Virus record (IMG/VR): IMGVR_UViG_3300037785_000059
Location: 1 to 60,957 of that record
Strand: one strand, 5' to 3'
DNA: 60,957 nucleotides
DNA from: a virus
Lineage: Duplodnaviria > Caudoviricetes
Position numbers and translations under genes: made by a program
The notes under the pieces: model-generated
Database searches by the model: none
Seen by the model: the letters and a program-made list of their open reading frames with translations, nothing else
What the model was told of the DNA's origin: nothing
Shown here: piece by piece, positions 3,520 through 36,246 of the stretch
Layout of the letters: every line of letters begins with the position of its first letter
Numbering within the stretch: position 1 is the stretch's first letter

Positions 3520-4302
3520 ATGAACATCTATGACCACAACGGATGCGTCGCCATCCCCGTCGGCGTCACACAAGAATGGCTCGACGCCCTCGACCGCGAA
3601 GGCATCGAGAAAAATCTCCAGAAGATCCTCATCGAAAAGGCCGAGCACCTCGGAGAACAGGAAAAAGCACGCCAGAGGCTCGAATCCGCCCAAGAGGCCC
3701 GCGAAAACCGCCAAGACAGCATCCTGCGCTCGCTCACCGAGGCCGAGATCAACGAAGCCGCCCTCTTGGTCCTCGATCACACCAAAGGCGTCCTAAAGAC
3801 CGCTTTGCGCCTCCAAGCGCTCATCGACAAACACATCGAAAACCCCGAAGACGGAAGCAAACGCGGCAACGTCAACACCGTCCTCGATTACGTCCGGGCC
3901 CATATCAATATGCTCGAAGGCGTGAGCCTCTCCAAAAAACCCCTCCAAGACCTGCGATACATCCGAACCGCCAAAGCCGCCAACGCCTGCGGCATCTCCC
4001 ACAAAAACCTCTCGATGATCTGGAAATGCCTCATCTCCATCCACAAAAGCGGCACCGCCCTGCCCATCGGACAAGAGGCAAAGCTCGCCGACCTCGCCGC
4101 CACCATGCAGCTCCAAGCCGACTATGACAGGGAAGCCGAAAAAGAGGCCGAAGCCTCGCTCGGACCCCGCGACAAAGAAAGACGACGCCGCGCGGCCCAC
4201 GCAGAAGCCCGACGGGCCATGTTCCCAGACCTGTCCCTCTATCCCGGCGATGAACCTATAAGTTCAAAATACCGGAGATCGAGGGAATTTGAGGCCGAAT
4301 GA
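3520..4302 (+). CDS. Hypothetical helical protein
   Basis: ATG 3520 after AGGAGG; strong C/A codon bias. Confidence 0.75.
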   Translation: MNIYDHNGCVAIPVGVTQEWLDALDREGIEKNLQKILIEKAEHLGEQEKARQRLESAQEARENRQDSILRSLTEAEINEAALLVLDHTKGVLKTALRLQALIDKHIENPEDGSKRGNVNTVLDYVRAHINMLEGVSLSKKPLQDLRYIRTAKAANACGISHKNLSMIWKCLISIHKSGTALPIGQEAKLADLAATMQLQADYDREAEKEAEASLGPRDKERRRRAAHAEARRAMFPDLSLYPGDEPISSKYRRSREFEAE

Positions 4303-4499
4303 CGGGGCGTATATTTTTAGGTGCAAAGGCGGGATTGCGGGGGCCGGGGCAGATGTCGCGGACCGCGGACCGCGGGACGGGGTAGAAAATATCCCGTAAA
4401 ACCAAGGCATTGTCCGGATAATCGGGGAAGGGCTGGCGAAAAATCTTGCGCGGATCGGGGACAGGAGGTAGGTTCTTCCTGTCCCCAAACGACGGGGAC

Positions 4500-4995
4500 G
4501 CGGCGAAAAAGGTTACATAGTTACGAATTTCTAGGGTAAAAATGTAACCGTAAATTGCCGGTAAGTGGTTGAAAGCATTGGGGAAAATTGTCGAGTTACA
4601 TAAGTGACGGTGTTTTTAGGGCGGGGCGCGGATCGCGGATCGCGGATCGCGGGGCCAAAAACAGGGCTACTTATGTAACCGAAGGCCGAAGGGCCAATGA
4701 AATAAGGGCGAAACCGGCGTCAACCGGTAACGAATAGACCCTAGAAATATGTAACCGTGTAACCGTCCCAGGCGAGGAGCCTGCGGGCGGATTTTGCGTT
4801 TGATCTGGTCTTGACAAGGGCCCGAAGTCCTTAATTGGCCAGATGTGTTAAGGGGGGGAGAGATGGTTTTTTATTTTTTTTGATTTTTGCTCTATATACT
4901 AATAGGGGAAAATAAGAGAATGGGGTTGACAAGATGAGGCGGCGAAGGCCCAGCCTCTTGACCCCTGCCCGGCCTGCCTGCTAAATGTAACGAGA
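4500..4995. other. Putative replication origin or packaging-initiation region
   Basis: AT-rich, non-coding, with about 8 ATGTAACCG/GTTAC repeats in both orientations and a T-run near 4867-4888. Confidence 0.5.
4958..4987 (+). promoter_or_regulatory. Promoter for terS
   Basis: TTGACC-N16-GCTAAAT, alphaproteobacterial RpoD-like. Confidence 0.55.
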
Positions 4996-5014
4996 ATTAA
5001 CATCGGAGCAGAGC

Positions 5015-5659
5015 ATGACAGGCAATCGCTATCTGGTCGCTCAAGAAGAGCGGAAGAACGTCCGACGCAAGGCGAAGGACTACGCCCCCGAAGACAAGCC
5101 CCTGAAGCGCCGCGAAGAGCTGTTCGTCCGGGAGCTGGTCTCGAAGGATGGTCAGATCACGATGCGCGAGGCGGCGATCAATGCCGGATTCCCGCCTCGC
5201 TCGGCGCACGCCCGCGCGCACGAGATGACCAATCCTGCAATCAGCCCCCACATTGTGAAGGCGATCAAAGCCTACCGGGCGGAGCTCGATGCGAAATATG
5301 GCGTCGAATATCACCGGCACCTGCGCGACCTGCAGAGGATCCGCGACATGGCCCTAGAGGCTGGCGCGTTCTCGGCCGCCGTTCAGGCGGAGTATCGGCG
5401 CGGGCAGGCGCATGGCGACATCTACGTCCAGAAAAGCGAAGTCCGGCACGGCACCATCGAGTCGATGAGCAAAGACGAGGTGCTGAAGGCGATTAAGGAG
5501 CTGAAGCAGCAGTATGAGCCAGTCACCATTGACGTCACGCCCGAAGAAAACGCAAACCGCGGCAACCGGCAAAAAGCGCGAGAGCGCCTTCTGGCGGGTG
5601 GTTCTGAGGGCGATGGAGAAATCGAAGAGGGCGAAATCCTGGACGGCCACGAGGATTGA
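5015..5659 (+). CDS. terS: Terminase small subunit
   Basis: N-terminal HTH (EELFVRELV...EAAINAGF) plus SAAVQAEYRRGQAHG oligomerisation motif typical of TerS. Confidence 0.8.
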   Translation: MTGNRYLVAQEERKNVRRKAKDYAPEDKPLKRREELFVRELVSKDGQITMREAAINAGFPPRSAHARAHEMTNPAISPHIVKAIKAYRAELDAKYGVEYHRHLRDLQRIRDMALEAGAFSAAVQAEYRRGQAHGDIYVQKSEVRHGTIESMSKDEVLKAIKELKQQYEPVTIDVTPEENANRGNRQKARERLLAGGSEGDGEIEEGEILDGHED

Positions 5660-5984
5660 GTCTTGGGCCGTCCCTGGCGTCCCTGACGTCGATGTCTGCG
5701 ATGAGCACGGGCGGTTCCACAAGATCGAGCTGAAGAGCACGGCGAGCGACAAGGTGGGGCTGCGGCCGCACCAAGTCTCTTACATGACGCGGCACCAGCA
5801 CGCGTCGTGCTGGATCTTGGTGAGAAAGACCTTGACGACCGGCGGCCACGCGGTGTTTCTGTATCACGCACGCCAGGCGGTCGATGTCTGGGCGGAGGGG
5901 TGCAAGGTGCGCCCGATCCTGCGCTTGGATTCGCCGGTCGATTATGACGTGCTGTTTGACACCATATCCCCGCCGGAGGGCTGA
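5514..5984 (+). CDS. PD-(D/E)xK nuclease (VRR-NUC / Holliday junction resolvase-like)
   Basis: ESAFW...RIESWAVPGVPDV...IELK...RPHQ motifs; overlaps terS 3' end; start uncertain. Confidence 0.75.
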   Translation: MSQSPLTSRPKKTQTAATGKKRESAFWRVVLRAMEKSKRAKSWTATRIESWAVPGVPDVDVCDEHGRFHKIELKSTASDKVGLRPHQVSYMTRHQHASCWILVRKTLTTGGHAVFLYHARQAVDVWAEGCKVRPILRLDSPVDYDVLFDTISPPEG

Positions 5985-6165
5985 CTATGCTATGGATCCT
6001 GACGCGCCTCAGCGCGTGGCTGAATGCGCCATACGATTGGCGCGACGACCTGGACAGGTTGCGCGAAGATCAAGACCGAAAAAAAGACCTTGACGACGAT
6101 CACGACGCCGACGCATGATGCGCGGCATGGGCAATCCCGCCCGGCTTTGATTTGGAGATGAGACG

Positions 6166-6699
6166 ATGCGGACACAAACTGTTGCGGTTTTCACGTTCGA
6201 TGAGCTCGACGCCGACGCGAAAGAGCGGGCGCGCGAGGATTACCGGCGCGGCGGCGACCTGTGGCACTGGTCTGGCGAGTGGTGGGCGAGCGCCGAGGCG
6301 TTTTCTGCTATCGCGCCGATCCAGGTGCAGGCGATTGATTGGGATCGCGCCGAGCCTGAGATGCGCTTTGCTGATGATGACGTCGCGGCGCTGTCTGGCG
6401 TTCGGGCGTGGAAATGGCTGCACAATAATGGCTGGTTCGATCTGGCGGCGCGCAACGCTGATGGCGGCTGCACCTTGACGGGCTATTGCGGCGATTGCGA
6501 CTTTTTTGATCCGATCCATGCCTTGCGGTCGCGCCCGGCCGACGTGCCGGCCCTTGAGGATCTTTTCCGCGACTGCGTCTATGGCTGGGCGTTCGCCGCC
6601 CGGCGCGACCTTGAGTGGTGTTATTCGGATGAGGCTATCGACGAAACGCTGACCGCCAACGGATATGAGTATCTCGCATCGGGAGAGTTTTGGGGTTGA
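6166..6699 (+). CDS. Acidic phage/plasmid protein (FDELxxxAKERA...YSDEAIDETL family)
   Basis: Cassette 1; family commonly annotated as an antitoxin-like protein in MGE early regions (from memory). Confidence 0.7.
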   Translation: MRTQTVAVFTFDELDADAKERAREDYRRGGDLWHWSGEWWASAEAFSAIAPIQVQAIDWDRAEPEMRFADDDVAALSGVRAWKWLHNNGWFDLAARNADGGCTLTGYCGDCDFFDPIHALRSRPADVPALEDLFRDCVYGWAFAARRDLEWCYSDEAIDETLTANGYEYLASGEFWG

Positions 6700-6765
6700 C
6701 GCCCCGCCCCGCTTTATCAATCAACACATGGGCAATCCCGCCCGCTAACCTCTGGAGATTTTCCA

Positions 6766-7407
6766 ATGCTCACCATCACTGTTGATTTTCTGAAAGCCGC
6801 CCTGCTCTTCGCCTCGAATGAGCAGACCCGGTATTACCTCTGCGGCGTGCACCTCCTGCGCCGCGGAGACCACCTCCGCATCTGCGCGACCGACGGTCAC
6901 CGGCTTTTCGTCGCGTCCGAGATCCTTTCCGGGCCCGGCCCGGACTTCGATGTCATCCTGCCCCGCGATGCGTTGAAAAAGGCCCTGACCGGCTTGGGCC
7001 GCGGCGTGTCGCACCTGCCCCTGGTTCTGGAAACCGGCGAGCGCGCGGGCCGCGACCAGGTCCTGCGCGCGACGCTGGGCGACGTCCAAATGACGCCCGT
7101 GGATGGATCGTTTCCGGACATTACCCGCGTCATCCCGAAAGCCGACGCGATCACCGGCGAGACGGCCGACTTCAACCCGATGTATCTCGCCGACATTGGC
7201 AAGGCGGCAAAGATCCTCGGATCCGGCGTCACGGATTTTCACCTTGGGCACAATGGCGACGCGCCCGCCCTCATCACGTTCGGTCAGAAAACCGCGTTTG
7301 CGGCCCTGATGCCGCTGCGCCCGCGGGTGGAGCCCATGCGCGCTTATGAGGTGGCGGCAATCATGGGCAGTGACGCGCCCGCGCTGGCGGATCAAAACGC
7401 GGCTTGA
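6766..7407 (+). CDS. Truncated DNA polymerase III beta-clamp-like protein
   Basis: ASNEQTRYYLCGV...ATDGHRL...GSFPDITRVIP...FNPMYL...ALMPLR match DnaN domains 2-3; only 213 aa. Confidence 0.8.
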   Translation: MLTITVDFLKAALLFASNEQTRYYLCGVHLLRRGDHLRICATDGHRLFVASEILSGPGPDFDVILPRDALKKALTGLGRGVSHLPLVLETGERAGRDQVLRATLGDVQMTPVDGSFPDITRVIPKADAITGETADFNPMYLADIGKAAKILGSGVTDFHLGHNGDAPALITFGQKTAFAALMPLRPRVEPMRAYEVAAIMGSDAPALADQNAA

Positions 7408-7476
7408 CGCGTCAAGGTCAAACGGTCTAACAAGGGGGCGGGCAATCCCGCCCCCTTTGCTTTGGAGATCCCCGAG

Positions 7477-7992
7477 ATGAAAATTTATGTCGCTTGCCTC
7501 GCCGCTTATAACGCCGGACGCCTTCACGGCGAATGGATCGACGCCACGTCCGACGCCGCCGAGATGGGCGAGGCGGTCGCCGCTATGCTCGCAAAGTCGC
7601 CCGTGCCCGGTGCGGAAGAATATGCGATTCATGATTATGACGGTTTTCCGGATATGGGCGAGTATCCGGGCCTTGACGCTATCGCCGAGACCGCGGGCTT
7701 AGTGGAGCTCGCCGCGGAGCATGACCTGAGCCCCGCGGCGTTCAAGGCGATTGCCGACAATTGGCACGGCGGCGCCCGCGACATCCGCGAGGCGTTCGGG
7801 CGGTGGGTCGGGCTGTTCGACTCTTTCCGCGAGTATGCCGACGAAATCGCGGATCTTTACATTGGCGAGACGTCCGGCGCGGCGGCCGACTATGTTTCGC
7901 AATATTTCGACTTTGAGTATCACGCCAGCGACCTTGCCCTTTCTTACACCGTTATCGAGACGCCCGACGGGGTCGCGGTTTTTTATGATTGA
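7477..7992 (+). CDS. ardA: Antirestriction protein ArdA
   Basis: KIYVACLAAYNAGRLHGEWID, EEYAIHDYDGF and YFDFE motifs; acidic. Confidence 0.9.
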   Translation: MKIYVACLAAYNAGRLHGEWIDATSDAAEMGEAVAAMLAKSPVPGAEEYAIHDYDGFPDMGEYPGLDAIAETAGLVELAAEHDLSPAAFKAIADNWHGGARDIREAFGRWVGLFDSFREYADEIADLYIGETSGAAADYVSQYFDFEYHASDLALSYTVIETPDGVAVFYD

Positions 7993-8062
7993 CGCGTCAA
8001 GGTCAAACGCGCTAGGCAGGGGGCGGGCACTCCCGCCCCCTTTACTGTTTGGAGATTCTGAC

Positions 8063-8326
8063 ATGCTAAACACTGACGTTGACGCCGCCACGCTTGCCGC
8101 CGCCAAATTCGCCGTCCGCGAGGCCGTCCGTTATCGCGGTCTTGTGTCTGACACGCCCGCTTGGGAAGAGGTTTTCGAAGAGGTGCGCGACCTGCAGCGC
8201 GTCGCTAAGGCGTCCGGGTTGCCTATCTCGCCTGCAGATTGGGTTTACCTCGCCGACCTGGTCAACGAGGCGTGCGACGATGACGGTCTGCCGCGCTTGT
8301 TCGTCGTGGAAGGGGCCGACGCATGA
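8063..8326 (+). CDS. Small acidic hypothetical protein (cassette 4)
   Basis: ATG 8063 after TTTGGAGA of the repeat element. Confidence 0.7.
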   Translation: MLNTDVDAATLAAAKFAVREAVRYRGLVSDTPAWEEVFEEVRDLQRVAKASGLPISPADWVYLADLVNEACDDDGLPRLFVVEGADA

Positions 8327-8472
8327 TCCGGCCCCGCGCCCGCCAGCGCGCCCGCCAGGCGCGCCGCGACGCGGCGGCCGACGTGGTGGCGATTGCCGCC
8401 ATGATCGCGTTTACATATGGGGGGCTGCTGCTGGCCTTCGCGCTCGACGCGGGGGTGACAGCTGGACCTTGA
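8323..8472 (+). CDS. 49-aa basic/transmembrane peptide (MIRPRARQRARQARRDAAADVVAIAAMIAF...)
   Basis: ATGA-coupled; its TGA is the TTGA of the next -35; not in ORF track. Confidence 0.6.
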   Translation: MIRPRARQRARQARRDAAADVVAIAAMIAFTYGGLLLAFALDAGVTAGP

Positions 8473-8541
8473 CGCGGCCGCGGCCGTGACGATAGACAGG
8501 GGGCGGGCAATCCCGCCCCCTTTGCTTTGGAGAATCTCGAG

Positions 8542-8724
8542 ATGTATGTTTATCAATCCCAGTCCGGTCACTTTGAGGTTGCCGCATATACGTCAACGCG
8601 TTGTTGGCGTTTGCGCATGGCGGCGGTCAACGCCCCGTCTTTTAATACGCGCGCGGAGGCGGAAGCGTGGCGCGTTGAAACAGAAGCCCGGATCCGGGCC
8701 GAACAGTCGGGGGCGGTGGCATGA
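8542..8724 (+). CDS. Small hypothetical protein (cassette 5)
   Basis: ATG after TTTGGAGA; FNTRAEAEAW motif. Confidence 0.65.
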   Translation: MYVYQSQSGHFEVAAYTSTRCWRLRMAAVNAPSFNTRAEAEAWRVETEARIRAEQSGAVA

Positions 8725-8927
8725 CCGGCCCTGACTTCCGCCTTTCCTTCGATTGTCCCGATTGCGGTAAGCAATGGGGAGAAACGGCCCGAGTGCGGCG
8801 TGACGGCGAGTGTCCGCGGTGCGGCACGGTTTCGCGCTATACGCGGGCCCGCGCCCTAGCGCCCTGGCCCTGGCCTACCTCGCGCGCGCCCGAACGCCCC
8901 TATCCCCCGCCGCGCGTTTGGGATTGA
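8721..8927 (+). CDS. Zinc-ribbon protein
   Basis: CPDCG...CPRCG; ATGA-coupled; stop fused to next -35. Confidence 0.65.
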   Translation: MTGPDFRLSFDCPDCGKQWGETARVRRDGECPRCGTVSRYTRARALAPWPWPTSRAPERPYPPPRVWD

Positions 8928-8997
8928 CGCGGCCGCGGCCGCTATGTCATGAAGGGCGCGGGCGCAATCCCGCGCCCTTTGCTTTGGGAGGCCTTCC

Positions 8998-9315
8998 ATG
9001 AAATATGACATATTCAACGGGAACCCGCGCACCTTGACGCGCTTTGAGTTTTTCACCCTTCGCCGCGCCGCGCGTCGCAACCGCTGCAGCTATCGGTTCG
9101 GCCGGTTCTACATCGGTTCGGACGTCCGGCCTTGCGACGCCGCGGGCGCAATTGTTTACGGCCCCGCCCACAAGCTGCGCTGCGCGCAGTGGGCTCGCGC
9201 GCAGGCCGCCGCCGCTCGTGACGCCGAATCCCGCAGCCGTTGGATTCGCGGTGCCCGTGAGATTCTTTCCACGCCCTGCGCCCCTGTTGACTATTGGCGC
9301 GCGCGGTTCACCTGA
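8998..9315 (+). CDS. Basic hypothetical protein (cassette 6)
   Basis: ATG after TTTGGGAGG of the repeat element. Confidence 0.7.
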   Translation: MKYDIFNGNPRTLTRFEFFTLRRAARRNRCSYRFGRFYIGSDVRPCDAAGAIVYGPAHKLRCAQWARAQAAAARDAESRSRWIRGAREILSTPCAPVDYWRARFT

Positions 9316-9341
9316 CGCCCGCCGCCCCTACCGCGCCACCG

Positions 9342-9370
9342 CGCCCCGCCTTCACCGGCGGGGCGTTTTT
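9342..9370 (+). terminator. Intrinsic terminator (near-duplicate at about 9639-9667)
   Basis: CGCCCCGCC ttcacc GGCGGGGCG TTTTT. Confidence 0.75.
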
Positions 9371-9454
9371 CGTTTGGGATTGACGCGCCGCTAGGTGCGG
9401 CGCTATTAACGGGGCGGGCGCAATCCCGCGTCCCTACCGTTTGGAGCTTTACGC

Positions 9455-9613
9455 ATGACCACCTATTCTATCGTCTTCACCGAACGCGGCCGCCCCGTCC
9501 GGACCTGGACAGGCTATGCAACGTGGGCCGACGCCCGCCGCGCTATCGCCGACGCTGACCTGGTTATCCCCTTCCACTGGGATTGGACAATCGCCGAGGT
9601 GCGCCGCCCCTAA
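9455..9613 (+). CDS. 52-aa hypothetical protein (MTTYSIVFTERGRPVRTW..., cassette 7)
   Basis: Translated by hand; TTTGGAG RBS; not in ORF track. Confidence 0.65.
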   Translation: MTTYSIVFTERGRPVRTWTGYATWADARRAIADADLVIPFHWDWTIAEVRRP

Positions 9614-10244
9614 CGCCCGCCGCCACCGCCGCGCTACCGCGCCCTGCCCTACCCGGCGGGGCGTTTTCGTTTGCGCCCGTCTCGCCCGTTAAACCGGCCG
9701 CCCGCGGCCCGTCGCCTACGCCCCTAGACCTACCGGCCCGTGCTACGCGCCCGGCGGCCCGGATCCTGCGCGCCTCGCGCCCCGTTATGTCCGGCCGTGC
9801 ATAACGGTCGGCGCAGCCCGGCCCCCGCCCCGCGGGCCGAGATGTCCGTTAATCGGCCCCCGGCGCGCGCCCCTGGCGGCCCGATCCGCGGCCCGCGGCG
9901 GCCGGATCCGGGTGCGCGGTGCGGTGGTCCGGTGCCCGGATCGGATCCGGGTTTATGTCATCCGCGGCCCGTGATCCTGCAGGCGGTGGCGATGTTTCAC
10001 GGGCCGTCGGCCTGCAGTCGGCGTCGATGTTTCACGGGCTTGACGCCGAGGCCGGCGGCCCGCGGTGCGCGGTGCGCGCGTCATGGGGCCCCGGCGGCAA
10101 TTGAGGCTATCGGCGCGCAAGCCGTTGGAATCGTTGGGTTTTTCGCGCTGCATGGGCGGCGGTCCGGCGGACGGGCGCAAGGACCATGTTCGTCACAAAC
10201 AATCATCAGAAAAAAAGGTACCGGATTCTGGGGTCCGGATCGGA

Positions 10245-10260
10245 TGTTTCACGTGAAACA
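10245..10260. promoter_or_regulatory. parS: parS site (perfect chromosomal consensus)
   Basis: TGTTTCACGTGAAACA inside an 18-bp palindrome (10244-10261); half-sites TGTTTCAC at 9993 and 10028. Confidence 0.85.
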
Positions 10261-10438
10261 TCTATAAGAAATCCAATCCTCTGTCCGGGTCCCCTGCCCC
10301 GTGGGTATGATAAAAATTTTCAATGAAACAAGGCGGTTTCGTTCTAAATGTGCGAACCGAAACCCCTATCGCATATCTTTCGATACGTGCTATTCTCTGT
10401 GCAAAACGGCCCGAGGCCCTTATTTTTAAGGCCCGCGA

Positions 10439-10483
10439 ATGTGATCACATGGTGTGATCACACGCTCGGAGGATGTGATCACA
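10439..10483. promoter_or_regulatory. Three TGTGATCACA palindromes flanking the terL RBS
   Basis: Copies at 10440-10449, 10453-10462, 10474-10483; GGAGG at 10468-10472. Confidence 0.7.
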
Positions 10484-10484
10484 A

Positions 10485-12938
10485 ATGTCTATGCTGAACG
10501 AAGACCCGCAGGAGCGCCTGTTGAAGTTGGAGCTTCGGCTTGCGCAGCTTCAGATGAAGGAGAAGGTGCAGCAGGAATTCCTGCCGTTTGTGAAGCATGT
10601 CTGGCCTGAGTTCATTGCGGGGGAGCATCACCGGATCATTGCGGAGAAGTTGGAGCGTGTGGCGCGTGGTGATTTGAAGCGTTTGATCATCAACATGCCC
10701 CCGCGTCATCGACTGGCGTTGGACACGCCTGTTTTGACTGTGGCGGGTTGGAAGACGATAGGGACGGTCGAGGTCGGCGATTTTGTCTATGGCTCGGACG
10801 GTCTTCCGCAGCGCGTGGTGGGGAAGTCGGATGTGTACGAGGAGCCTCTGTACGAGGTGCGTACGGACGAGGGCGAGGTCTTTGTCACGGATGCGGAGCA
10901 TCGGTGGAAGGCGGTTCGGTCTGTGCGCGAGATGGTTGGCGGCGTCCGCGGCACGCGAACCGAGGAGGTTGTGGTGTCCACGCGGGACATTGCGGACTGT
11001 GTTCTGCGCGCGGACCGTGCGACGCGGCTCGTGGACCGTGCTGCGGTTCATCGGGAGGCTGTGGAGTTGCCTGTGGACCCGTATGTTTTGGGGGTCTGGT
11101 TGGGGGACGGGCACAAGGGTCAGGGGATTATTTCGAGCCCGGACGAGGACGCGGCGTTCCTTCGTGCGGAGCTTGAGCGGCGCGGGTATCGGACCACGGA
11201 TCAGGCAACGTCGATGACTTTTGGCGTGTTGGGGTTGAAGGTTCTGTTGCGGGATGCGTTGGGCGTTTTGGGGGACAAGCGCATTCCGGAAGAGTATCTT
11301 CTGGGGTCTGTCGAGCAGCGGCGAGCTTTGCTGCACGGTTTGATGGACACGGACGGGAACGTGATGGCGTCTGGGCAGTGTGTGTTTTCGCAGAGCGATT
11401 CGGGGCTCATTGAGTCGTTCCGGCGGCTGCTGTGGTCTTTGGGTATCAAGAACACAGTGATTTCGTATGTGCCTAAGCTGAACGGGGTTGAGCACAAGCG
11501 GGCGTACAAGGTGCATTTTTACGACGCCGATGCGGCGACGTTGCCGCGCAAGCGGGCGCGGTGCCGTGCGCCGAAGGGGTTTGGGTCGCGGATTTATGCC
11601 ACGGCGGAGCCTTTGGGGGTGTCGGGTCGTGTGCAGTGCATTCAGGTTGCGAACGCGGATCAGGTGTTTTTGGTGGGGCGGAGCTTGACCCCGACGATGA
11701 ATACCAAGAGCGAATTTGCATCTTTCCTGTTCCCGGCGTGGTTTATGGGCAAGTTCCCGAACAAGAAGATCATCCAGGCGACGCATACGACGGAGTTGGC
11801 GGTTGGTTTTGGTCGAAAAACGAAGAATTTGATCGAGCGGGATGATTACAAGGACGTGTTTGACGTCAAGTTGGCGGCGGACAGTAAGGCGTCTGGCCGG
11901 TGGGACACGGACCGTGGCGGGATGTATTACGCTGTTGGTGTGGGGTCGAACTTGGCGGGTCGTGGTGGTGATTTGATTATCATTGACGACCCTCATTCGG
12001 AGCAGACGTTGATGTCTGCGAATGGGTTTGACGATGCGTGGGATTGGTACACGGGGGGTCCGCGTCAGCGTTTGCAGCCGGGTGGTGCGATTGTTGTGGT
12101 TATGACGCGGTGGCATGAGAAGGATTTGACGGGACAGTTGATCCGTGCGCAGGCCCGTGATCCGTTGGCCGATCAGTGGGAGGTTGTGGAGCTTCCTGCG
12201 ATCATGCCGAGTGGGAACTCCTGTTGGCCGGAGTATTGGTCTTTGGAGGATATGGTGCGTGTTCGTGCGTCGATTCCTTCTGGCAAGTGGAATGCGCAGT
12301 ATCAGCAGAACCCGACGGGTGATGAGAACTCGATTTTGCGTCGGGATTGGTGGCAGATTTGGGAGAAGGGGAAGGTTCCGCCATTGGAGTATGTGATTCA
12401 GAGCTATGACACGGCGTTCTCGAAGCGGGAGACGGCGGATTATTCGGCGATCACGACGTGGGGTGTCTTTCGGCAGGATGAGGGTGGTCCGCCGTCGTTG
12501 ATGTTGTTGGATGCGAAGAAGGGTCGGTGGGATTTTCCGGAGCTCAAGCGTGAGGCGTGGTCTTTGTATCAGTTTTGGGAGCCTGAGACGGTGATCATTG
12601 AGGCGAAGGCGACGGGGATGCCGTTGACGCATGAGTTGCGGAACATGGGGATTCCTGTGGTGAATTTTACGCCGAGTCGGGGCAACGACAAGGTGAGCCG
12701 GGCGCACAGTATTGCTCCGTTGTTTGAGGCTGGGATGATTTGGGCTCCTGATGAGCAGTGGGCGCATGAGTTGATTGAGGAGTGTGCGGCGTTTCCGAAC
12801 GGGGAGTATGATGACTATGTGGACAGCACGACGCAGGCGTTGATGCGGTATCGTCAAGGCAATTTTGTGCAGTTGCCGACGGATGACTGGGATGAGGAGG
12901 AGGAGCGCAGCCCGCGGATTCGGGCGTATTATGGGTAG
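10485..12938 (+). CDS. terL: Terminase large subunit (intein-containing)
   Basis: INMPPRH|TKSE Walker A, LIIIDDPH Walker B, SYDTA and DDYVDSTTQA nuclease motifs. Confidence 0.95.
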   Translation: MSMLNEDPQERLLKLELRLAQLQMKEKVQQEFLPFVKHVWPEFIAGEHHRIIAEKLERVARGDLKRLIINMPPRHRLALDTPVLTVAGWKTIGTVEVGDFVYGSDGLPQRVVGKSDVYEEPLYEVRTDEGEVFVTDAEHRWKAVRSVREMVGGVRGTRTEEVVVSTRDIADCVLRADRATRLVDRAAVHREAVELPVDPYVLGVWLGDGHKGQGIISSPDEDAAFLRAELERRGYRTTDQATSMTFGVLGLKVLLRDALGVLGDKRIPEEYLLGSVEQRRALLHGLMDTDGNVMASGQCVFSQSDSGLIESFRRLLWSLGIKNTVISYVPKLNGVEHKRAYKVHFYDADAATLPRKRARCRAPKGFGSRIYATAEPLGVSGRVQCIQVANADQVFLVGRSLTPTMNTKSEFASFLFPAWFMGKFPNKKIIQATHTTELAVGFGRKTKNLIERDDYKDVFDVKLAADSKASGRWDTDRGGMYYAVGVGSNLAGRGGDLIIIDDPHSEQTLMSANGFDDAWDWYTGGPRQRLQPGGAIVVVMTRWHEKDLTGQLIRAQARDPLADQWEVVELPAIMPSGNSCWPEYWSLEDMVRVRASIPSGKWNAQYQQNPTGDENSILRRDWWQIWEKGKVPPLEYVIQSYDTAFSKRETADYSAITTWGVFRQDEGGPPSLMLLDAKKGRWDFPELKREAWSLYQFWEPETVIIEAKATGMPLTHELRNMGIPVVNFTPSRGNDKVSRAHSIAPLFEAGMIWAPDEQWAHELIEECAAFPNGEYDDYVDSTTQALMRYRQGNFVQLPTDDWDEEEERSPRIRAYYG
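10710..11702 (+). mobile_element. Class 3 intein with LAGLIDADG homing endonuclease (331 aa)
   Basis: Begins RLALDTP, DAEHRW (block B Trp), VQCIQV (block F Cys), PTMN|T end; LGVWLGDG and LHGLMDTDG. Confidence 0.9.
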
Positions 12939-34384: not shown

Positions 34385-36246
34385 TGCCTCTGACGGGTCT
34401 CCAGTTCCGGCCGGGAATCAACCGCGAAACGACGTCCTACACCAACGAAGGCGGGTGGCAGGATTGCGACAAGGTGCGCTTCCGCGCGGGTTTCCCGGAG
34501 ACTATCGGCGGCTGGGAGCCCTATACGGGTACGCCAGTTTTGGGCGTGTGCCGCAATCTCCACACCTGGACGACCCTGTCGAACGAAAACTTCGTGGCCG
34601 TGGGCACGCATCTCAAGCACTACCTCGCCAGCGGCGGCGCGCTGTTCGACATCACCCCGATCCGCGAATCGACGGCCGATGGCGCGGTGACGGTCAGCGC
34701 AACGGACGGGTCCACCACCCTGACGGTGTCGGACACGGCACATGGCGCGCTTCTGGGGGACTTCGTGACGTTCCGAAACGCTGTTTCGCTGGGCGGAACC
34801 GTGACGGCGGCTGTCTTGAACGCCGAGCACCAGATCACGCAGATTGTGGACGCAGACACGTATGAGGTCGAGCTGGCGGTCGCTGCCAACGCCTCGGACA
34901 CGGGGAACGGCGGCGCTCTGATGGCGGCCGATTATCAGGTCAACACCGGCCTTTCGGACGCCGCCTTTGGCGACGGCTGGGGCGCAGGCCCGTGGGGCGA
35001 CGGCGGCTGGGGCTCGCCGGCGGATACGTCGGTGCCGGGCGCGCAGCTCCGTCTGTGGGCCGCCGACAATTACGGGGAAGACCTCCTGTTCTGTGTCCGC
35101 AACGGCGGCATCTACTACTGGGACGCTTCTTCGGGGACCGCGGCCCGCGGCGTAGCGATATCGGACCTTCCGGGCGCAAATTTGGCTCCGACGGTGGCCC
35201 GCGTTGTGCTGACGTCCGACCGGGACCGCCATGCTCTGGCGTTTGGGTGTGACGACGAGCTGTCTCCTGGGCAGCAGGATCCTCTGCTGATCCGCTTTTC
35301 CAACCAGGAGAGCGTGACGGATTGGGAGACCCGCGCGGACAACACCGCGGGCAGCCTTCGGATCAGCTCGGGCAGCGGCATCGTCACGGCGGTCAAGACG
35401 CGCCAGCAGGTCGTGGTGTTCACCGACGTTTCCTTGCACGCGCTGCAGTACATCGGACCGCCGTTCACGTTTGGTCTGACGGAGATCTCGGTCAACGTGA
35501 CGATTGCCGGCCCGCAGGCCGCGGCGGCCGTCAACGACCTTGTCTTCTGGATGGGCGAGGGGGACTTCTTCGTCTACGACGGCCGGGTGCGCAAGCTGCC
35601 CTGTTCGGTCAAAGAGTATGTCTTCAACCGGCTGGACATCAGCCAATCTCAGAAGATCACGGCGGCGCACAACCCGGAGTTTTCGGAGGTGTGGTGGTTC
35701 TACCAGTCCTCGGAGGGCAGCGAGAACGACAGCTACGTTGTCTACAACTACGAACAGAACCTCTGGTACTACGGCACACTGTCCCGGACAGCGTGGCAGC
35801 AGCGCGGCATCTTTGGCTACAGCATTGGCGCGGCCCCTGACGGGTATCTGTATTATCACGAGATCGGCATTCGGGACGGGAGCACGAGCCCCGCGCAGGC
35901 GCTTAATGCGTATATTGAGTCGAGCCCGGTCAACATCGGCGAGGGCGACCAGTTCATGTTTGCGGACAGGATCATTCCGGACATCACGTTCCGGAATTCG
36001 CCGGGCAGCCCGACGGTGACGATGACGCTGCGGGCACGGAATTACCCTGGCGACGGGTATTTGACAAAGGAAGAGGACAACCCTGTGACGCGGACGGCGA
36101 CGCTGCCGGTCGAAAAGTTCACGCGGGACATCGACGTGCGCTTGCGCGGACGGGCGGTGTCCTTGCGCGTGGAATCGGATGACCGCGACACGTCTTGGCG
36201 TCTGGGCACGCCGCGCCTGCGCGTTCGGACGGACGGGCGGAGGTAA
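34384..36246 (+). CDS. Tail nozzle / stabilization protein (P22 gp10-like)
   Basis: RPGINRE, DKVRFRAG, IRFSNQE, FWMG, EVWWFY, YVVYNY, WRLG...DGRR. Confidence 0.75.
   Translation: MPLTGLQFRPGINRETTSYTNEGGWQDCDKVRFRAGFPETIGGWEPYTGTPVLGVCRNLHTWTTLSNENFVAVGTHLKHYLASGGALFDITPIRESTADGAVTVSATDGSTTLTVSDTAHGALLGDFVTFRNAVSLGGTVTAAVLNAEHQITQIVDADTYEVELAVAANASDTGNGGALMAADYQVNTGLSDAAFGDGWGAGPWGDGGWGSPADTSVPGAQLRLWAADNYGEDLLFCVRNGGIYYWDASSGTAARGVAISDLPGANLAPTVARVVLTSDRDRHALAFGCDDELSPGQQDPLLIRFSNQESVTDWETRADNTAGSLRISSGSGIVTAVKTRQQVVVFTDVSLHALQYIGPPFTFGLTEISVNVTIAGPQAAAAVNDLVFWMGEGDFFVYDGRVRKLPCSVKEYVFNRLDISQSQKITAAHNPEFSEVWWFYQSSEGSENDSYVVYNYEQNLWYYGTLSRTAWQQRGIFGYSIGAAPDGYLYYHEIGIRDGSTSPAQALNAYIESSPVNIGEGDQFMFADRIIPDITFRNSPGSPTVTMTLRARNYPGDGYLTKEEDNPVTRTATLPVEKFTRDIDVRLRGRAVSLRVESDDRDTSWRLGTPRLRVRTDGRR

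What the first reader, a model, noticed from the sequence alone, without database searches (positions are those of the whole stretch)
6090..9675. Seven-unit cassette array punctuated by a fused stop-promoter-terminator-RBS element, carrying anti-defence-type genes
Seen: each cassette begins with TTGACG, a -10-like box, a conserved GGG(CG)CA[AC]TCCCGC core and a TGG(G)AG RBS. In five junctions (6696, 7404, 7989, 8469, 8924) the upstream gene's TGA stop is the TGA of the -35 box. In units 3-6 the core extends to a 10-11-bp perfect stem (e.g. AAGGGGGCGGG-caat-CCCGCCCCCTT, 7432-7457) followed by a T-rich tract. Inference: read-through RNA from the previous cassette forms a terminator, while the local transcript starts within the stem, escapes termination and carries a short 5' hairpin, so every cassette is insulated and plug-and-play. 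Neighbouring units share spacer variants (3=4, 5=6), consistent with recombinational expansion. Cargo is ArdA, a truncated beta-clamp, an acidic protein and six tiny unknowns, lying between terS and terL. No recombinase was recognised. This resembles plasmid leading regions and phage host-takeover modules, and the unknown ORFs are anti-defence candidates.
Basis: partly seen in the sequence, partly recalled or inferred. Interest (0 to 1): 0.85.

Follow-up and report, generated by a model that had tools for sequence, protein, structure and literature searches.

The report
Phage promoter-terminator gene cassette array
A phage genome carries seven small gene cassettes, each headed by the same compact start-stop control element, and related phages swap cassettes at this element; the design resembles one already described in T4-like phages.

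Summary
Seven copies of a ~75-bp element lie at 6090-9454 and nowhere else in this 60,957-bp virus record (7 matches, 0.00 expected). Each has TTGACG, a weak -10, the core GCA[AC]TCCCGC, GGAG and ATG. At five junctions the TGA of TTGACG is the stop codon of the upstream gene. Units 3-6 fold into 10-12-bp hairpins of -23.7 to -26.2 kcal/mol.

The element is not private to this phage. A profile finds 99 distinct copies in related viral contigs, and the same 19-mer hairpin is exact in 52 of them. In 78 of 85 elements the stem abuts the -10. A standard start site would therefore fall inside the left arm. That geometry fits "terminate incoming RNA, spare your own".

Cargo is shuffled: 22 gene orders occur among 32 arrays. 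One cassette indel between 92-96% identical contigs is bounded exactly by two elements.

The closest known system is the PeSL promoter/stem-loop cassette of T4-like phages (PMC2839356). I rate this a new variant of a known kind, in relatives of Pelagibacter phages HTVC023P/027P. Promoter activity, start sites, termination and timing are all inferred; no RNA data exist. Only ArdA supports the anti-defence label.

The parts
5015..5659 (+). Small terminase subunit gene (left flank)
   Evidence: phrog_51 terminase small subunit, 8.2e-10. Pfam Terminase_2 is below cut-off. 83% identical to L040.
5514..6118 (+). Nuclease/helicase-like ORF (5514-5984, start uncertain, overlaps terS) and a 43-aa acidic ORF (5987-6118) that runs into unit 1
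   Evidence: phrog_2165 9e-10 and phrog_93 6.7e-6. Colinear with L040. ORF list.
6090..6165 (+). Unit 1: TTGACG 6090-6095, core 6129-6142, GGAG 6154-6157. No left arm, only a 4-5-bp stem.
   Evidence: The only unit called promoter-like by the E. coli-consensus scan.
6166..6699 (+). Cassette 1 gene, 177 aa, acidic (pI 4.3), unknown function. Member of a large phage protein family.
   Evidence: phrog_10310 8.5e-24. 917 cluster representatives at E<=1e-3. AF2 model pLDDT 97.2. No PDB match at E<=0.001. 4 uncharacterised phage proteins in BFVD.
6696..6765 (+). Unit 2: the TGA of TTGACG is the stop of cassette 1. The core is present but there is no long stem.
6766..7407 (+). Cassette 2 gene, 213 aa, two-domain relative of the beta sliding clamp (DnaN domains II+III)
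   Evidence: PF02767 2.4e-9. phrog_3007 and phrog_947. PDB DnaN chains 5.5e-12, residues 141-254. Homologues in 25 of 153 related loci.
7404..7476 (+). Unit 3: stop/-35 overlap, 11-bp stem 7432-7457, TTTGCTTT, GGAG
   Evidence: -26.2 kcal/mol, z -3.67
7477..7992 (+). Cassette 3 gene, 171 aa, ArdA anti-restriction protein
   Evidence: PF07275 1.1e-32 over 153 of 155 profile positions. phrog_2059 1.9e-24. pI 4.1.
7989..8062 (+). Unit 4: stop/-35 overlap, 10-bp stem 8018-8041 (loop CACT)
8063..8472 (+). Cassette 4: an 87-aa acidic protein (8063-8326) and an overlapping 49-aa basic/hydrophobic ORF (8323-8472)
   Evidence: The 87-aa protein is 49% identical to an ORF in L040 and 42% to one in L026.
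8469..8541 (+). Unit 5: stop/-35 overlap, 10-bp stem 8498-8521
8542..8927 (+). Cassette 5: a 60-aa ORF (8542-8724) and a 68-aa zinc-ribbon-like ORF (8721-8927)
   Evidence: The 60-aa ORF has 6 homologues at 72-90% identity. Zinc-ribbon hits are all below Pfam cut-offs. Codon-position GC is atypical.
8924..8997 (+). Unit 6: stop/-35 overlap, 12-bp stem 8951-8980 carrying a compensated G-C to C-G change relative to units 3-5
8998..9315 (+). Cassette 6 gene, 105 aa, basic, unknown function
   Evidence: Homologues at 97, 68 and 47% identity on other contigs.
9311..9376 (+). 3' module of cassette 6: stop codon plus a canonical intrinsic terminator (stem 9341-9366, TTTTTCGTTT)
   Evidence: Direct repeat D5, 85% identical to 9609-9667. 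-26.5 kcal/mol. Terminator-like.
9380..9454 (+). Unit 7: full promoter part, imperfect stem, no T tract. It follows the stand-alone terminator.
   Evidence: (-17.8 kcal/mol, z -0.99)
9455..9613 (+). Cassette 7 gene, 52 aa, unknown function
   Evidence: One homologue at 75% identity besides the window's own record.
9609..9674 (+). 3' module of cassette 7 and end of the array: stop plus intrinsic terminator (stem 9639-9664). Conserved at the end of the L040 array.
   Evidence: blastn 9641-9732 against L040 8336-8426, 75.8%.
10485..12938 (+). Large terminase gene (right flank) interrupted by an intein-like insert
   Evidence: tblastn ~61% to annotated TerL. Terminase_6C and LAGLIDADG_3. Window 10709-11711 has no counterpart in L040.

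Best explanation
The region is an array of seven self-contained gene cassettes. It sits in the variable terS-terL region of a phage related, by TerL, to Pelagibacter phages HTVC027P and HTVC023P.

Each cassette is headed by one copy of a ~75-bp composite control element with three parts:
1. A host sigma-70-type promoter. Its -35 hexamer TTGACG also supplies the TGA stop of the preceding gene.
2. A GC-rich stem-loop followed by a T-rich tract. The stem begins directly after the -10 hexamer. RNA coming from upstream therefore contains the whole hairpin and terminates just before the next ribosome-binding site. RNA started at the local promoter begins inside the left arm, keeps only 3-4 of its bases, and runs on.
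3. A GGAG ribosome-binding site and an ATG.

Because the same element precedes every gene, homologous recombination between copies deletes, inserts or exchanges whole cassettes without disturbing their neighbours. This makes the region a gene-shuffling platform of the PeSL type.

The cargo (ArdA, a two-domain clamp relative, acidic and tiny proteins) is most likely expressed by the host polymerase soon after entry.

Shown here: the repeat, its conservation and geometry across relatives, the hairpins, variable cargo, and an element-bounded indel.

Inferred: promoter activity, the start position, termination, early timing, and the function of all cargo except by homology for ArdA.
For: Repeat in the window. 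7 matches against 0.00 expected, all on one strand, each 6-11 nt upstream of an ATG after GGAG.

Conservation.
- A profile of the element finds 169 hits, 99 of them distinct, in the 154 sources held (153 related loci plus the window).
- The family consensus is TTGAC.-N-TATGCGAtAAA-GGGGCGGGGCAATCCCGCCCC-T-rich-GGAG-ATG.
- The 19-mer hairpin is exact in 52 viral contigs, several with 2-4 copies.
- 25 of 55 TerS-related loci with at least 2.5 kb downstream carry at least one element within 6 kb after terS: 19 carry one, 5 carry three, 1 carries six.

Geometry.
- In 78 of 85 distinct elements a TTG/TTT lies 26-33 nt (mode 29-30) before the stem. The stem therefore starts 0-3 nt after a -10 placed 17 nt from the -35.
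- A start 7 nt after the -10 leaves 1-6 (mostly 3-4) left-arm bases.
- Median hairpin energy is -18.3 kcal/mol for the full hairpin and -8.7 for the truncated one.

Hairpin and terminator.
- Units 3-6 fold at -23.7 to -26.2 kcal/mol with z -2.4 to -3.7.
- 68 of 85 family elements have at least 5 T in the 8 nt after the stem.
- Covariation is modest but above controls: 33 cells changed on both sides against 18.1 in shuffles (0 of 500 reach it), score 0.175 against 0.095-0.146 for slid partners.
- The same hairpin occurs singly in 69 bacterial contigs, 24 of them with a T-rich tail, without the promoter or RBS parts. This fits a generic terminator hairpin.
- Where a stand-alone terminator precedes the unit (unit 7), the unit's own stem is degenerate.

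Stop/-35 fusion is family-wide. In 29 of 45 distinct TTGAC elements the TGA closes an open frame of at least 40 codons.

Shuffling.
- 22 gene-family orders occur among 32 non-identical arrays. The clamp family has 4 different upstream and 5 different downstream neighbours.
- L010 and L029 are 92-96% identical in the flanks. L010 carries an extra element plus a 63-aa ORF between two elements, while L029 has one chimeric element.
- The window and its closest relative L040 are 86-90% identical in TerS and TerL proteins, yet share only the clamp and the 87-aa protein (49-63%) within the array.

Against: - No transcript data. No start, end or timing has been measured, and no RNA run holds the stretch.
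- In the window the -10 hexamers are weak (CTAACA, CTAGGC, GATAGA...). The E. coli-consensus scan called 1 of 7 units promoter-like, no more than in shuffles.
- The host and its sigma factor preferences are unknown.
- The T tract of the window's units is interrupted, and unit 3 was not called terminator-like.
- Units 1 and 2 keep the core GGGCAATCCCGCCC without a left arm. The loop GCAAT is the same in 55 of 89 elements. A plain terminator does not need such sequence constancy, so another constraint may act on it.
- Truncated leaders do not fold better than shuffles (z -0.3 to -1.4). The proposed 5' hairpin is therefore unsupported by energy.
- 30 of 55 TerS relatives show no element at the threshold used.
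- Whether the phage has its own RNA polymerase could not be excluded. The PF00940 search had a silent control, and six ORFs of 338-1092 aa have no Pfam family; five of them also have no PHROG family.
Confidence: 0.68

Rival explanations
1. The conserved hairpin is mainly a recognition site for a specific factor rather than a passive terminator. Candidates are a phage or host DNA-binding regulator using the palindrome at +1 as an operator to shut off the cassettes, or an RNA-binding, antitermination or processing factor. The array would then be a co-regulated regulon, and termination would be secondary.
For: The stem and loop sequence is nearly constant across phages whose TerS is only 65-73% identical. 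The loop is GCAAT in 55 of 89 elements. Units 1 and 2 and several relatives keep GGGCAATCCCGCCC without the left arm. A palindrome over the start site is a classic operator position. Terminator palindromes that double as transcription-factor sites are documented (LexA at the yobI terminator; Fletcher et al. 2026 bioRxiv, section 16 read).
Against: No candidate regulator was identified in the 30 ORFs scanned. The same hairpin with a T-rich tail occurs in unrelated bacteria, which argues for a generic structure. Compensated changes keep the pairing. Dual use of the left arm, as discriminator/start region and as stem, could itself freeze the sequence.
Confidence: 0.15
2. The TTGACG boxes are not active promoters. 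The array is read as one or a few long transcripts from a promoter upstream of terS (about 4925), and the hairpins act as RNA stability or processing signals, or as partial attenuators that set gene dosage.
For: The -10 boxes in the window are weak and only 1 of 7 units passes a consensus scan. A GGGGTTGACA box lies upstream of terS, with its equivalent in L040. The T tracts are imperfect.
Against: TTGAC or TTGCA at a fixed 26-33 nt from the stem is conserved in 78 of 85 elements. The low-GC relatives have good -10 regions (TGCGATAAA, TTTAAA) at 17-nt spacing. Conservation of a -35 to -10 spacing has no obvious reason in a pure RNA signal.
Confidence: 0.1
3. The repeats are sites of a dedicated site-specific recombinase (integron attC-like) or the ends of a small mobile element, and their regulatory look is incidental.
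For: Cassette-by-cassette variation and an element-bounded indel. PeSL authors also left a helper recombinase open (PMC2839356, discussion passage seen).
Against: No integrase or recombinase family appeared among the 30 window ORFs scanned; this scan was not exhaustive. Elements are always co-oriented with the downstream gene at a fixed distance. There are no target-site duplications. The crossover in L029 lies within plain homology.
Confidence: 0.04
4. The hairpins are single-strand promoters of the Frpo type known from plasmid leading regions, or N4-type hairpin promoters read by a virion polymerase.
For: The cargo resembles leading-region genes: ArdA here, and DUF932-like proteins behind the element in relatives. 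The Samuel et al. 2024 leading-region paper was seen only as a search listing and the start of its abstract.
Against: The -35 and -10 hexamers lie outside and upstream of the stem, so the fold does not build them. The longest ORF is 1092 aa, far below the size I recall for the N4 virion polymerase. Tailed-phage DNA enters double-stranded (general knowledge).
Confidence: 0.03

Closest known systems
PeSLs (promoter-early stem-loops) of T4-like myoviruses (Arbiol et al. 2010, PMC2839356; Comeau et al. 2014, PMC4122927)
   Same: Both are a repeated ~50-100-bp composite that runs from the upstream stop codon through a sigma-70-like promoter and a G/C stem-loop to the SD and ATG. Both cluster in a variable region full of ORFans. 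Related phages differ by cassettes bounded by the element. One PeSL subclass has the stem just after the -10 (section 14).
   Different: No sequence relationship and a different phage lineage (TerL closest to HTVC027P/023P). One geometry dominates here, whereas PeSLs have five. The -35 itself carries the stop codon, instead of a stop in an AT-rich upstream tract. The hairpin sequence is almost invariant across many phages. Promoter and terminator activity and mini-circles were shown for PeSLs but not here.
Morons of lambdoid phages (as discussed in PMC2839356, passage seen)
   Same: Single genes that bring their own promoter and terminator.
   Different: Morons lack a shared flanking repeat and are thought to insert by illegitimate recombination. 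Here one conserved element heads every cassette.
Promoter-coupled terminators of bacteria (Fletcher et al. 2026, bioRxiv 10.64898/2026.08.19.745784; abstract and sections 5, 9, 16 read)
   Same: Terminator and promoter of adjacent units share DNA.
   Different: There the stem acts as the -35 and termination occurs about 10 bp upstream of the next start. Here the promoter comes first, and the predicted termination point lies about 20-25 nt downstream of the local start.
Anti-defence islands in plasmid leading regions (Samuel et al. 2024, PMC11541004; search listing and start of abstract only)
   Same: A cluster of small, early-needed genes including ArdA. DUF932-like genes occur in relatives.
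   Different: This is a phage, not a plasmid. The promoter hexamers are not formed by the hairpin, and no ssDNA entry is involved.
Integron gene cassettes
   Same: A tandem array of single-gene cassettes of variable content separated by a repeat.
   Different: No integrase was recognised. The repeat is a promoter-terminator-RBS element upstream of each gene, not an attC site downstream. Every cassette has its own promoter.

Membership tests
PeSL-type composite promoter/stem-loop cassette (functional class) | Sigma-70-like -35 and -10 at about 17-nt spacing | tested here: inconclusive
   TTGACG is invariant in 7 of 7 units, but the -10 boxes are weak and only 1 of 7 passes the E. coli-consensus scan. 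Relatives have better -10 regions at 17-nt spacing.
PeSL-type composite promoter/stem-loop cassette (functional class) | Stable G/C stem-loop within the element | tested here: met
   Units 3-6 fold at -23.7 to -26.2 kcal/mol. Units 1, 2 and 7 are weak. Family: 85 elements have stems of 7-13 bp.
PeSL-type composite promoter/stem-loop cassette (functional class) | [quoted passage not shown] | tested here: met
   The stop lies inside the -35 at 5 junctions. Family-wide, 29 of 45.
PeSL-type composite promoter/stem-loop cassette (functional class) | Repeated and clustered in a variable region rich in ORFans | tested here: met
   7 copies in 3.4 kb and none elsewhere. 6 of 9 cargo proteins have no homologue in 153 related loci.
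PeSL-type composite promoter/stem-loop cassette (functional class) | Indels or replacements between related phages with breakpoints in the element | tested here: met
   L010 against L029. Window against L040. 22 orders in 32 arrays.
PeSL-type composite promoter/stem-loop cassette (functional class) | Measured promoter and terminator activity; mini-circles | not testable with these tools
   Needs reporter assays, RNA end mapping and inverse PCR.
PeSL-type composite promoter/stem-loop cassette (functional class) | Belongs to the T4-like myoviruses, with an AT-rich tract upstream of the -35 | tested here: not met
   TerL is closest to HTVC027P/HTVC023P. No AT-rich tract in the window; the coding sequence abuts the -35. 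It is therefore an analogue, not a member of the T4 lineage set.
Intrinsic (Rho-independent) terminator | GC-rich stem immediately followed by a U tract | tested here: inconclusive
   The scan calls units 4, 5 and 6 and the two stand-alone sites at 9341 and 9639, but not unit 3. The window's tracts are interrupted. Family: 68 of 85 have at least 5 T in 8 nt.
ArdA anti-restriction protein (PF07275) | Full-length match to the family profile above the curated cut-off | tested here: met
   114.3 bits against a cut-off of 27, profile positions 1-153 of 155. Acidic, pI 4.1. Activity not tested.
Beta sliding clamp (DnaN) | Three clamp domains in about 366 aa | tested here: not met
   213 aa. Only the central-domain profile matches. 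It aligns to DnaN from residue ~141 onward. It is a two-domain relative, conserved as such in 25 of 153 related loci.
Integron | Tyrosine-recombinase integrase next to the array, attC sites downstream of the genes | tested here: not met
   No integrase family among the 30 ORFs scanned (not exhaustive). The repeat lies upstream of the genes and carries promoter and RBS.
Frpo-type ssDNA promoter | -35 and -10 created by the fold of a single strand | tested here: not met
   Both hexamers lie 5' of the stem.

The most novel reading that the evidence does not exclude
The ~21-nt core (GGGGC GGGGC AAT CCCGCCCC) is a three-in-one device fixed across a widespread group of aquatic phages. Its left arm would be the promoter's discriminator and start region. 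The whole core would be a terminator for incoming RNA. After initiation inside the arm, the remaining GGGC/GCCC register would give every cassette mRNA the same short 5' hairpin. The constancy that this triple duty imposes would also make the element a recombination hot spot. The terS-terL region would then work as an integron-like, recombinase-free capture platform for counter-defence genes, evolved independently of the T4 PeSLs.
Probability: 0.3. Interest if true: 0.7.

Novelty: new variant of a known kind. Interest (0 to 1): 0.55.

Why it matters
- It would show that PeSL-style modular shuffling is not a peculiarity of T4-like myoviruses. It would be a convergent solution in an unrelated phage group related to abundant pelagiphages.
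- The element is a simple sequence tag (one 19-mer found 52 viral contigs). It marks genes that phages express from their own insulated promoters next to ArdA. That gives a cheap way to harvest candidate counter-defence and host-takeover genes from metagenomes, for example the 177-aa family with a confident new fold and 917 cluster representatives.
- The element is a natural, very compact stop/promoter/terminator/RBS part. It would be worth testing as an insulator in GC-rich bacteria.

Tried and rejected
- RNA evidence. The look-up of sequencing runs (kind rna) listed no RNA holder. This says nothing about expression.
- DNA contigs of the one holder, X1, were laid on the stretch. Two joints (6158>9342 and 7463>8911) fall at or near element borders. 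Their sides are only 23-24 letters at 85% likeness, which the tool itself flags as often repeat-derived. I do not count them.
- DNA similarity to 50,697 deposited phage records: no match for 5000-10500.
- Rfam: only a sub-threshold hit (BjrC68, 20.7 bits against 39) over unit 6. Rejected.
- PF00940 (single-subunit RNA polymerase) in the record: no match, but the control rang nowhere, so it is uninformative.
- The strict first pattern found only 2 units because the core spacing differs between units. A 13-mer with 2 mismatches was not above chance on its own (10 against 5.1). Both were replaced by the pattern.
- The bacterial-genome scan with the 19-mer gave 69 single hits over many phyla that cover only the hairpin. 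They give no host and no sign of the composite element. Fifteen share a longer palindrome (GTAG...CTAC) that I did not follow.
- HTVC027P and DSL-LC04 have the same terS-to-terL block of small genes but not this element. HTVC027P has two copies of a different TTGACA-plus-inverted-repeat motif.
- Structure of the cassette-1 protein: Foldseek against PDB gave nothing at E<=0.001.
- Supplementary files of the PeSL papers (reporter data, primer tables) were not seen.

Closed or failed tools:
- Fold search library pdb_via_wide was not on the machine.
- L056 was not held for the genome search.
- Searches failed on a one-base coordinate slip of mine and were repeated with corrected coordinates.

Full report
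What the window is. The window is a whole IMG/VR virus record of 60,957 bp, rated 100% complete and classed 'linear'. GC is about 62%. Both ends fall inside open frames, so the ends are probably arbitrary. The large terminase (10485-12938) is about 61% identical to those of Pelagibacter phages HTVC027P and HTVC023P, and about 60% to that of phage DSL-LC04. It carries an intein-like insert with a LAGLIDADG domain, and that insert is absent from the closest relative. A primase, a helicase and a family-A DNA polymerase lie at 49.5-55.3 kb. The host is unknown.

The observation. Reading 5400-10400 and listing ORFs confirms the description. A pattern joining TTGACG, the core GCAMTCCCGC and GGAG matches seven times, all on the + strand, at 6090, 6696, 7404, 7989, 8469, 8924 and 9380. 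None of 100 shuffles gave a match. Nothing similar occurs elsewhere in the record. ATG codons follow at 6166, 6766, 7477, 8063, 8542, 8998 and 9455. At five junctions the upstream ORF ends with the TGA inside TTGACG (ORF ends 6699, 7407, 7992, 8472, 8927).

Hairpins in the window. Units 3-6 fold into 10-12-bp G/C hairpins of -23.7 to -26.2 kcal/mol, well below shuffles. Units 1 and 2 keep the core but lack a left arm. Unit 7 has an imperfect stem and no T tract. Neighbouring units share spacer variants, 3 with 4 and 5 with 6.

The -10 boxes are poor: an E. coli-consensus scan calls only unit 1 promoter-like, no more than chance. The T tracts are interrupted, and the scan calls units 4-6 terminator-like but not unit 3. 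Cassettes 6 and 7 each end in a shared 59-nt 3' module that starts at the stop codon and holds a canonical terminator (9341-9366 and 9639-9664, about -26.5 kcal/mol). The last of these is conserved at the end of the array in the closest relative.

The cargo.
- Cassette 3 is ArdA (PF07275, 1.1e-32, full length).
- Cassette 2 is a 213-aa relative of the beta clamp. It matches only the central-domain profile and aligns to DnaN from residue ~141 onward. It has homologues in 25 of the 153 related loci held (some of these loci are the same contig fetched twice). It is a standing two-domain family, not a broken gene.
- Cassette 1 (177 aa, pI 4.3) belongs to a large family with 917 cluster representatives at E<=1e-3. 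It has no Pfam family. With an 81-row alignment it folds at pLDDT 97.2. It has no solved structural relative by Foldseek (0 of 24 listed rows at E<=0.001). It matches only uncharacterised phage proteins in BFVD (4 at E<=0.001).
- The 87-aa acidic protein has relatives in two other contigs (L040 and L026).
- The 105-, 60- and 52-aa ORFs have homologues of the same length on other contigs, so they are probably genes. Their codon-position GC, and that of the 49- and 68-aa ORFs, is less typical than for the larger genes.
- Beyond ArdA, nothing ties the cargo to counter-defence.

The element is a family, not a local oddity.
- A scan for TerS relatives returned 349 confirmed stretches, of which the best 80 were kept.
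- A scan for TTGACG plus the core returned 33 loci.
- The 19-mer GGGCGGGGCAATCCCGCCC is exact in 52 viral contigs, several with 2-4 copies.
- An iterated nhmmer profile finds 169 hits, 99 of them distinct, in the 154 sources held (153 related loci plus the window). The window has 7, its closest relative L040 (the same contig as L016) has 6, and all others have 4 or fewer.
- Of 55 TerS-related loci with at least 2.5 kb downstream, 25 have at least one element within 6 kb after terS.
- The consensus has a -35 (TTGAC/TTGCA), a region reading TATGCGAtAAA or TTTAAA at the -10 position, the hairpin GGGGCGGG-GCAAT-CCCGCCCC, a T-rich tract, GGAG or GAGG, and ATG.
- The window's copies differ by one G in the loop (CAAT).

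Geometry. I located the best stem and the upstream TTG/TTT in every distinct element. In 78 of 85 the -35 starts 26-33 nt (mode 29-30) before the stem. With a 17-nt spacer the stem therefore begins 0-3 nt after the -10 hexamer. A start 7 nt after the -10 leaves only 1-6 (mostly 3-4) bases of a 7-13-nt left arm. Median folding energy falls from -18.3 to -8.7 kcal/mol. It remains a prediction from standard promoter spacing, not a measurement.

The leftover GGGC can pair with GCCC in a second register in all seven units. Those short folds are no better than shuffles, so I treat the '5' hairpin' as a possibility only.

Is the hairpin a structure under selection? On an 87-row alignment, 79.6% of cells pair. 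Cells changed on both sides number 33 against 18.1 in shuffles (0 of 500 reach it). The covariation score of 0.175 exceeds all slid controls (0.038-0.146). Some rows, including the window's, are offset by one column and count as unpaired. Clear compensated cases are G-C to C-G in units 6 and 7, and G-C through G-U to A-U next to the loop in relatives.

Most of the stem, however, never varies, and the loop is GCAAT in 55 of 89 elements. Two explanations are open. One is triple duty of the left arm (discriminator, start, stem). The other is recognition by a factor, which is rival 1.

The same hairpin occurs once each in 69 bacterial contigs from many phyla. There the profile match covers only the hairpin and tail, and 24 of 69 have a T-rich tail. 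So it is also a generic terminator-like hairpin and gives no host clue.

Stop/-35 fusion. In 29 of 45 distinct elements with TTGAC, the TGA closes an open frame of at least 40 codons. The fusion is therefore a family trait, not an accident of this genome.

Cassette turnover.
- I clustered the first ORF behind each element into 42 families. Among 32 non-identical arrays of two or more units there are 22 different orders. The clamp family has four different upstream and five different downstream neighbours, and a 71-76-aa family has three different upstream neighbours.
- Cargo behind the element in relatives includes DUF932-like proteins of about 370-397 aa, DUF7249 and Kyano_Gp96.
- The cleanest event is L010 against L029. 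Their flanks are 92-96% identical. L010 has an extra element plus a 63-aa ORF lying between two elements. L029 has a single element that carries the promoter part of L010's second unit and the downstream gene of its third. This is what recombination between two flanking repeats produces.
- Two other pairs (L054/L081 and L159/L145) differ by a small gene inserted directly behind the element's RBS.
- The window and L040 are 86-90% identical in TerS and TerL proteins. Within the array they share only the clamp and the 87-aa protein, at 49-63%, plus the elements themselves.

Comparison with what is known. The closest system is the PeSL of T4-like phages. PeSLs are repeated composites that run from the upstream stop codon through a sigma-70 promoter and a G/C stem-loop to the SD and ATG. 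They are concentrated in hyperplastic regions with ORFans and mediate cassette gain and loss. [quoted passage not shown]

Differences here are the phage lineage, a single dominant geometry, the stop codon inside the -35, near-invariance of the hairpin across many phages, and the lack of any experiment.

In the searchable library, PeSL terms appear in 13 papers from 2011 on, none about HTVC023P-type phages. Only two records, a preprint and its published version, hold both 'HTVC023P' and 'promoter', and I saw them only as listings. So I found no prior description of this element, within the limits of that library.

Bacterial promoter-coupled terminators (Fletcher et al. 2026) share DNA between terminator and promoter, but in the opposite order. 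Frpo-type and N4-type hairpin promoters do not fit, because the hexamers lie outside the stem. No integrase was recognised among 30 ORFs scanned; that scan was not exhaustive.

Verdict. It is a new variant of a known kind, a PeSL-like cassette system in a different and environmentally common phage group. This genome has the largest array seen among the loci examined. Interest is moderate (0.55): the design principle is published, but the family-wide conservation, the stop/-35 fusion and the ready-made tag for finding independently promoted phage genes are useful. Confidence in the main explanation is 0.68.

Noticed in passing
window 4300-5015: A 700-bp non-coding stretch upstream of terS. It holds 5 of the record's 7 TGTAACC words within 4511-4764 (2.13 expected for the whole record), further GTTACA/GTAACG variants, a CGCGGATCG triple repeat near 4628-4650, and TTGACA boxes at 4811 and 4926. 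Some relatives carry GTTACG/GTAACG inside their element spacers. This may be an iteron or operator region.
   Followed up: partly
window 9675-10480: An 800-bp GC-rich non-coding gap between the array and terL. GATGTTTCACG occurs four times there and nowhere else, including a perfect palindrome at 10243-10262. The block 10169-10261 is 84% identical to L040, more conserved than most of the array. It may be a packaging or late-control region.
   Followed up: partly
window 10709-11711: The large terminase carries an insert of about 334 aa with a LAGLIDADG-like domain (an intein with homing endonuclease). The insert is absent from the closest relative L040.
   Followed up: partly
window 6166-6699: The cassette-1 protein belongs to a large phage family (917 cluster representatives). 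Its predicted fold is very confident (pLDDT 97.2), yet it has no Pfam family and no solved structural relative by Foldseek.
   Followed up: yes
window 8911-8930 and 9367-9386: The last codons of the 68-aa ORF (…CGTTTGGGATTGA) are homologous to the non-coding T-tract/-35 junction before unit 7. The ORF's C-terminus seems to have been recruited from former intergenic sequence after loss of a terminator.
   Followed up: no
window 34971-35067: ARAGORN calls a 97-nt tRNA-Pro (GGG) with the anticodon at position 39, which is unusually long for a tRNA.
   Followed up: no
L120 (HTVC027P) 7641-7709 and 8191-8261: Two copies of a different composite: TTGACA followed by an inverted repeat whose loop holds a TAATAT-like -10, then AAAGG and ATG. 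The promoter-plus-hairpin design may be older than the sequence family studied here.
   Followed up: no
L161, L162, L169, L172, L173 and about 10 more genome-contig loci: In unrelated bacterial MAGs (Anaerolineae, Planctomycetota and others) the same 19-mer sits inside a longer palindrome, GTAG-GGGCGGGGCAATCCCGCCC-CTAC. Its recurrence across phyla is unexplained.
   Followed up: no
L054 1912-2167 vs L081; L159 4169-4390 vs L145: A 71-76-aa gene family appears inserted exactly between an element's RBS and the resident gene, without a second element, in two independent phage pairs.
   Followed up: partly
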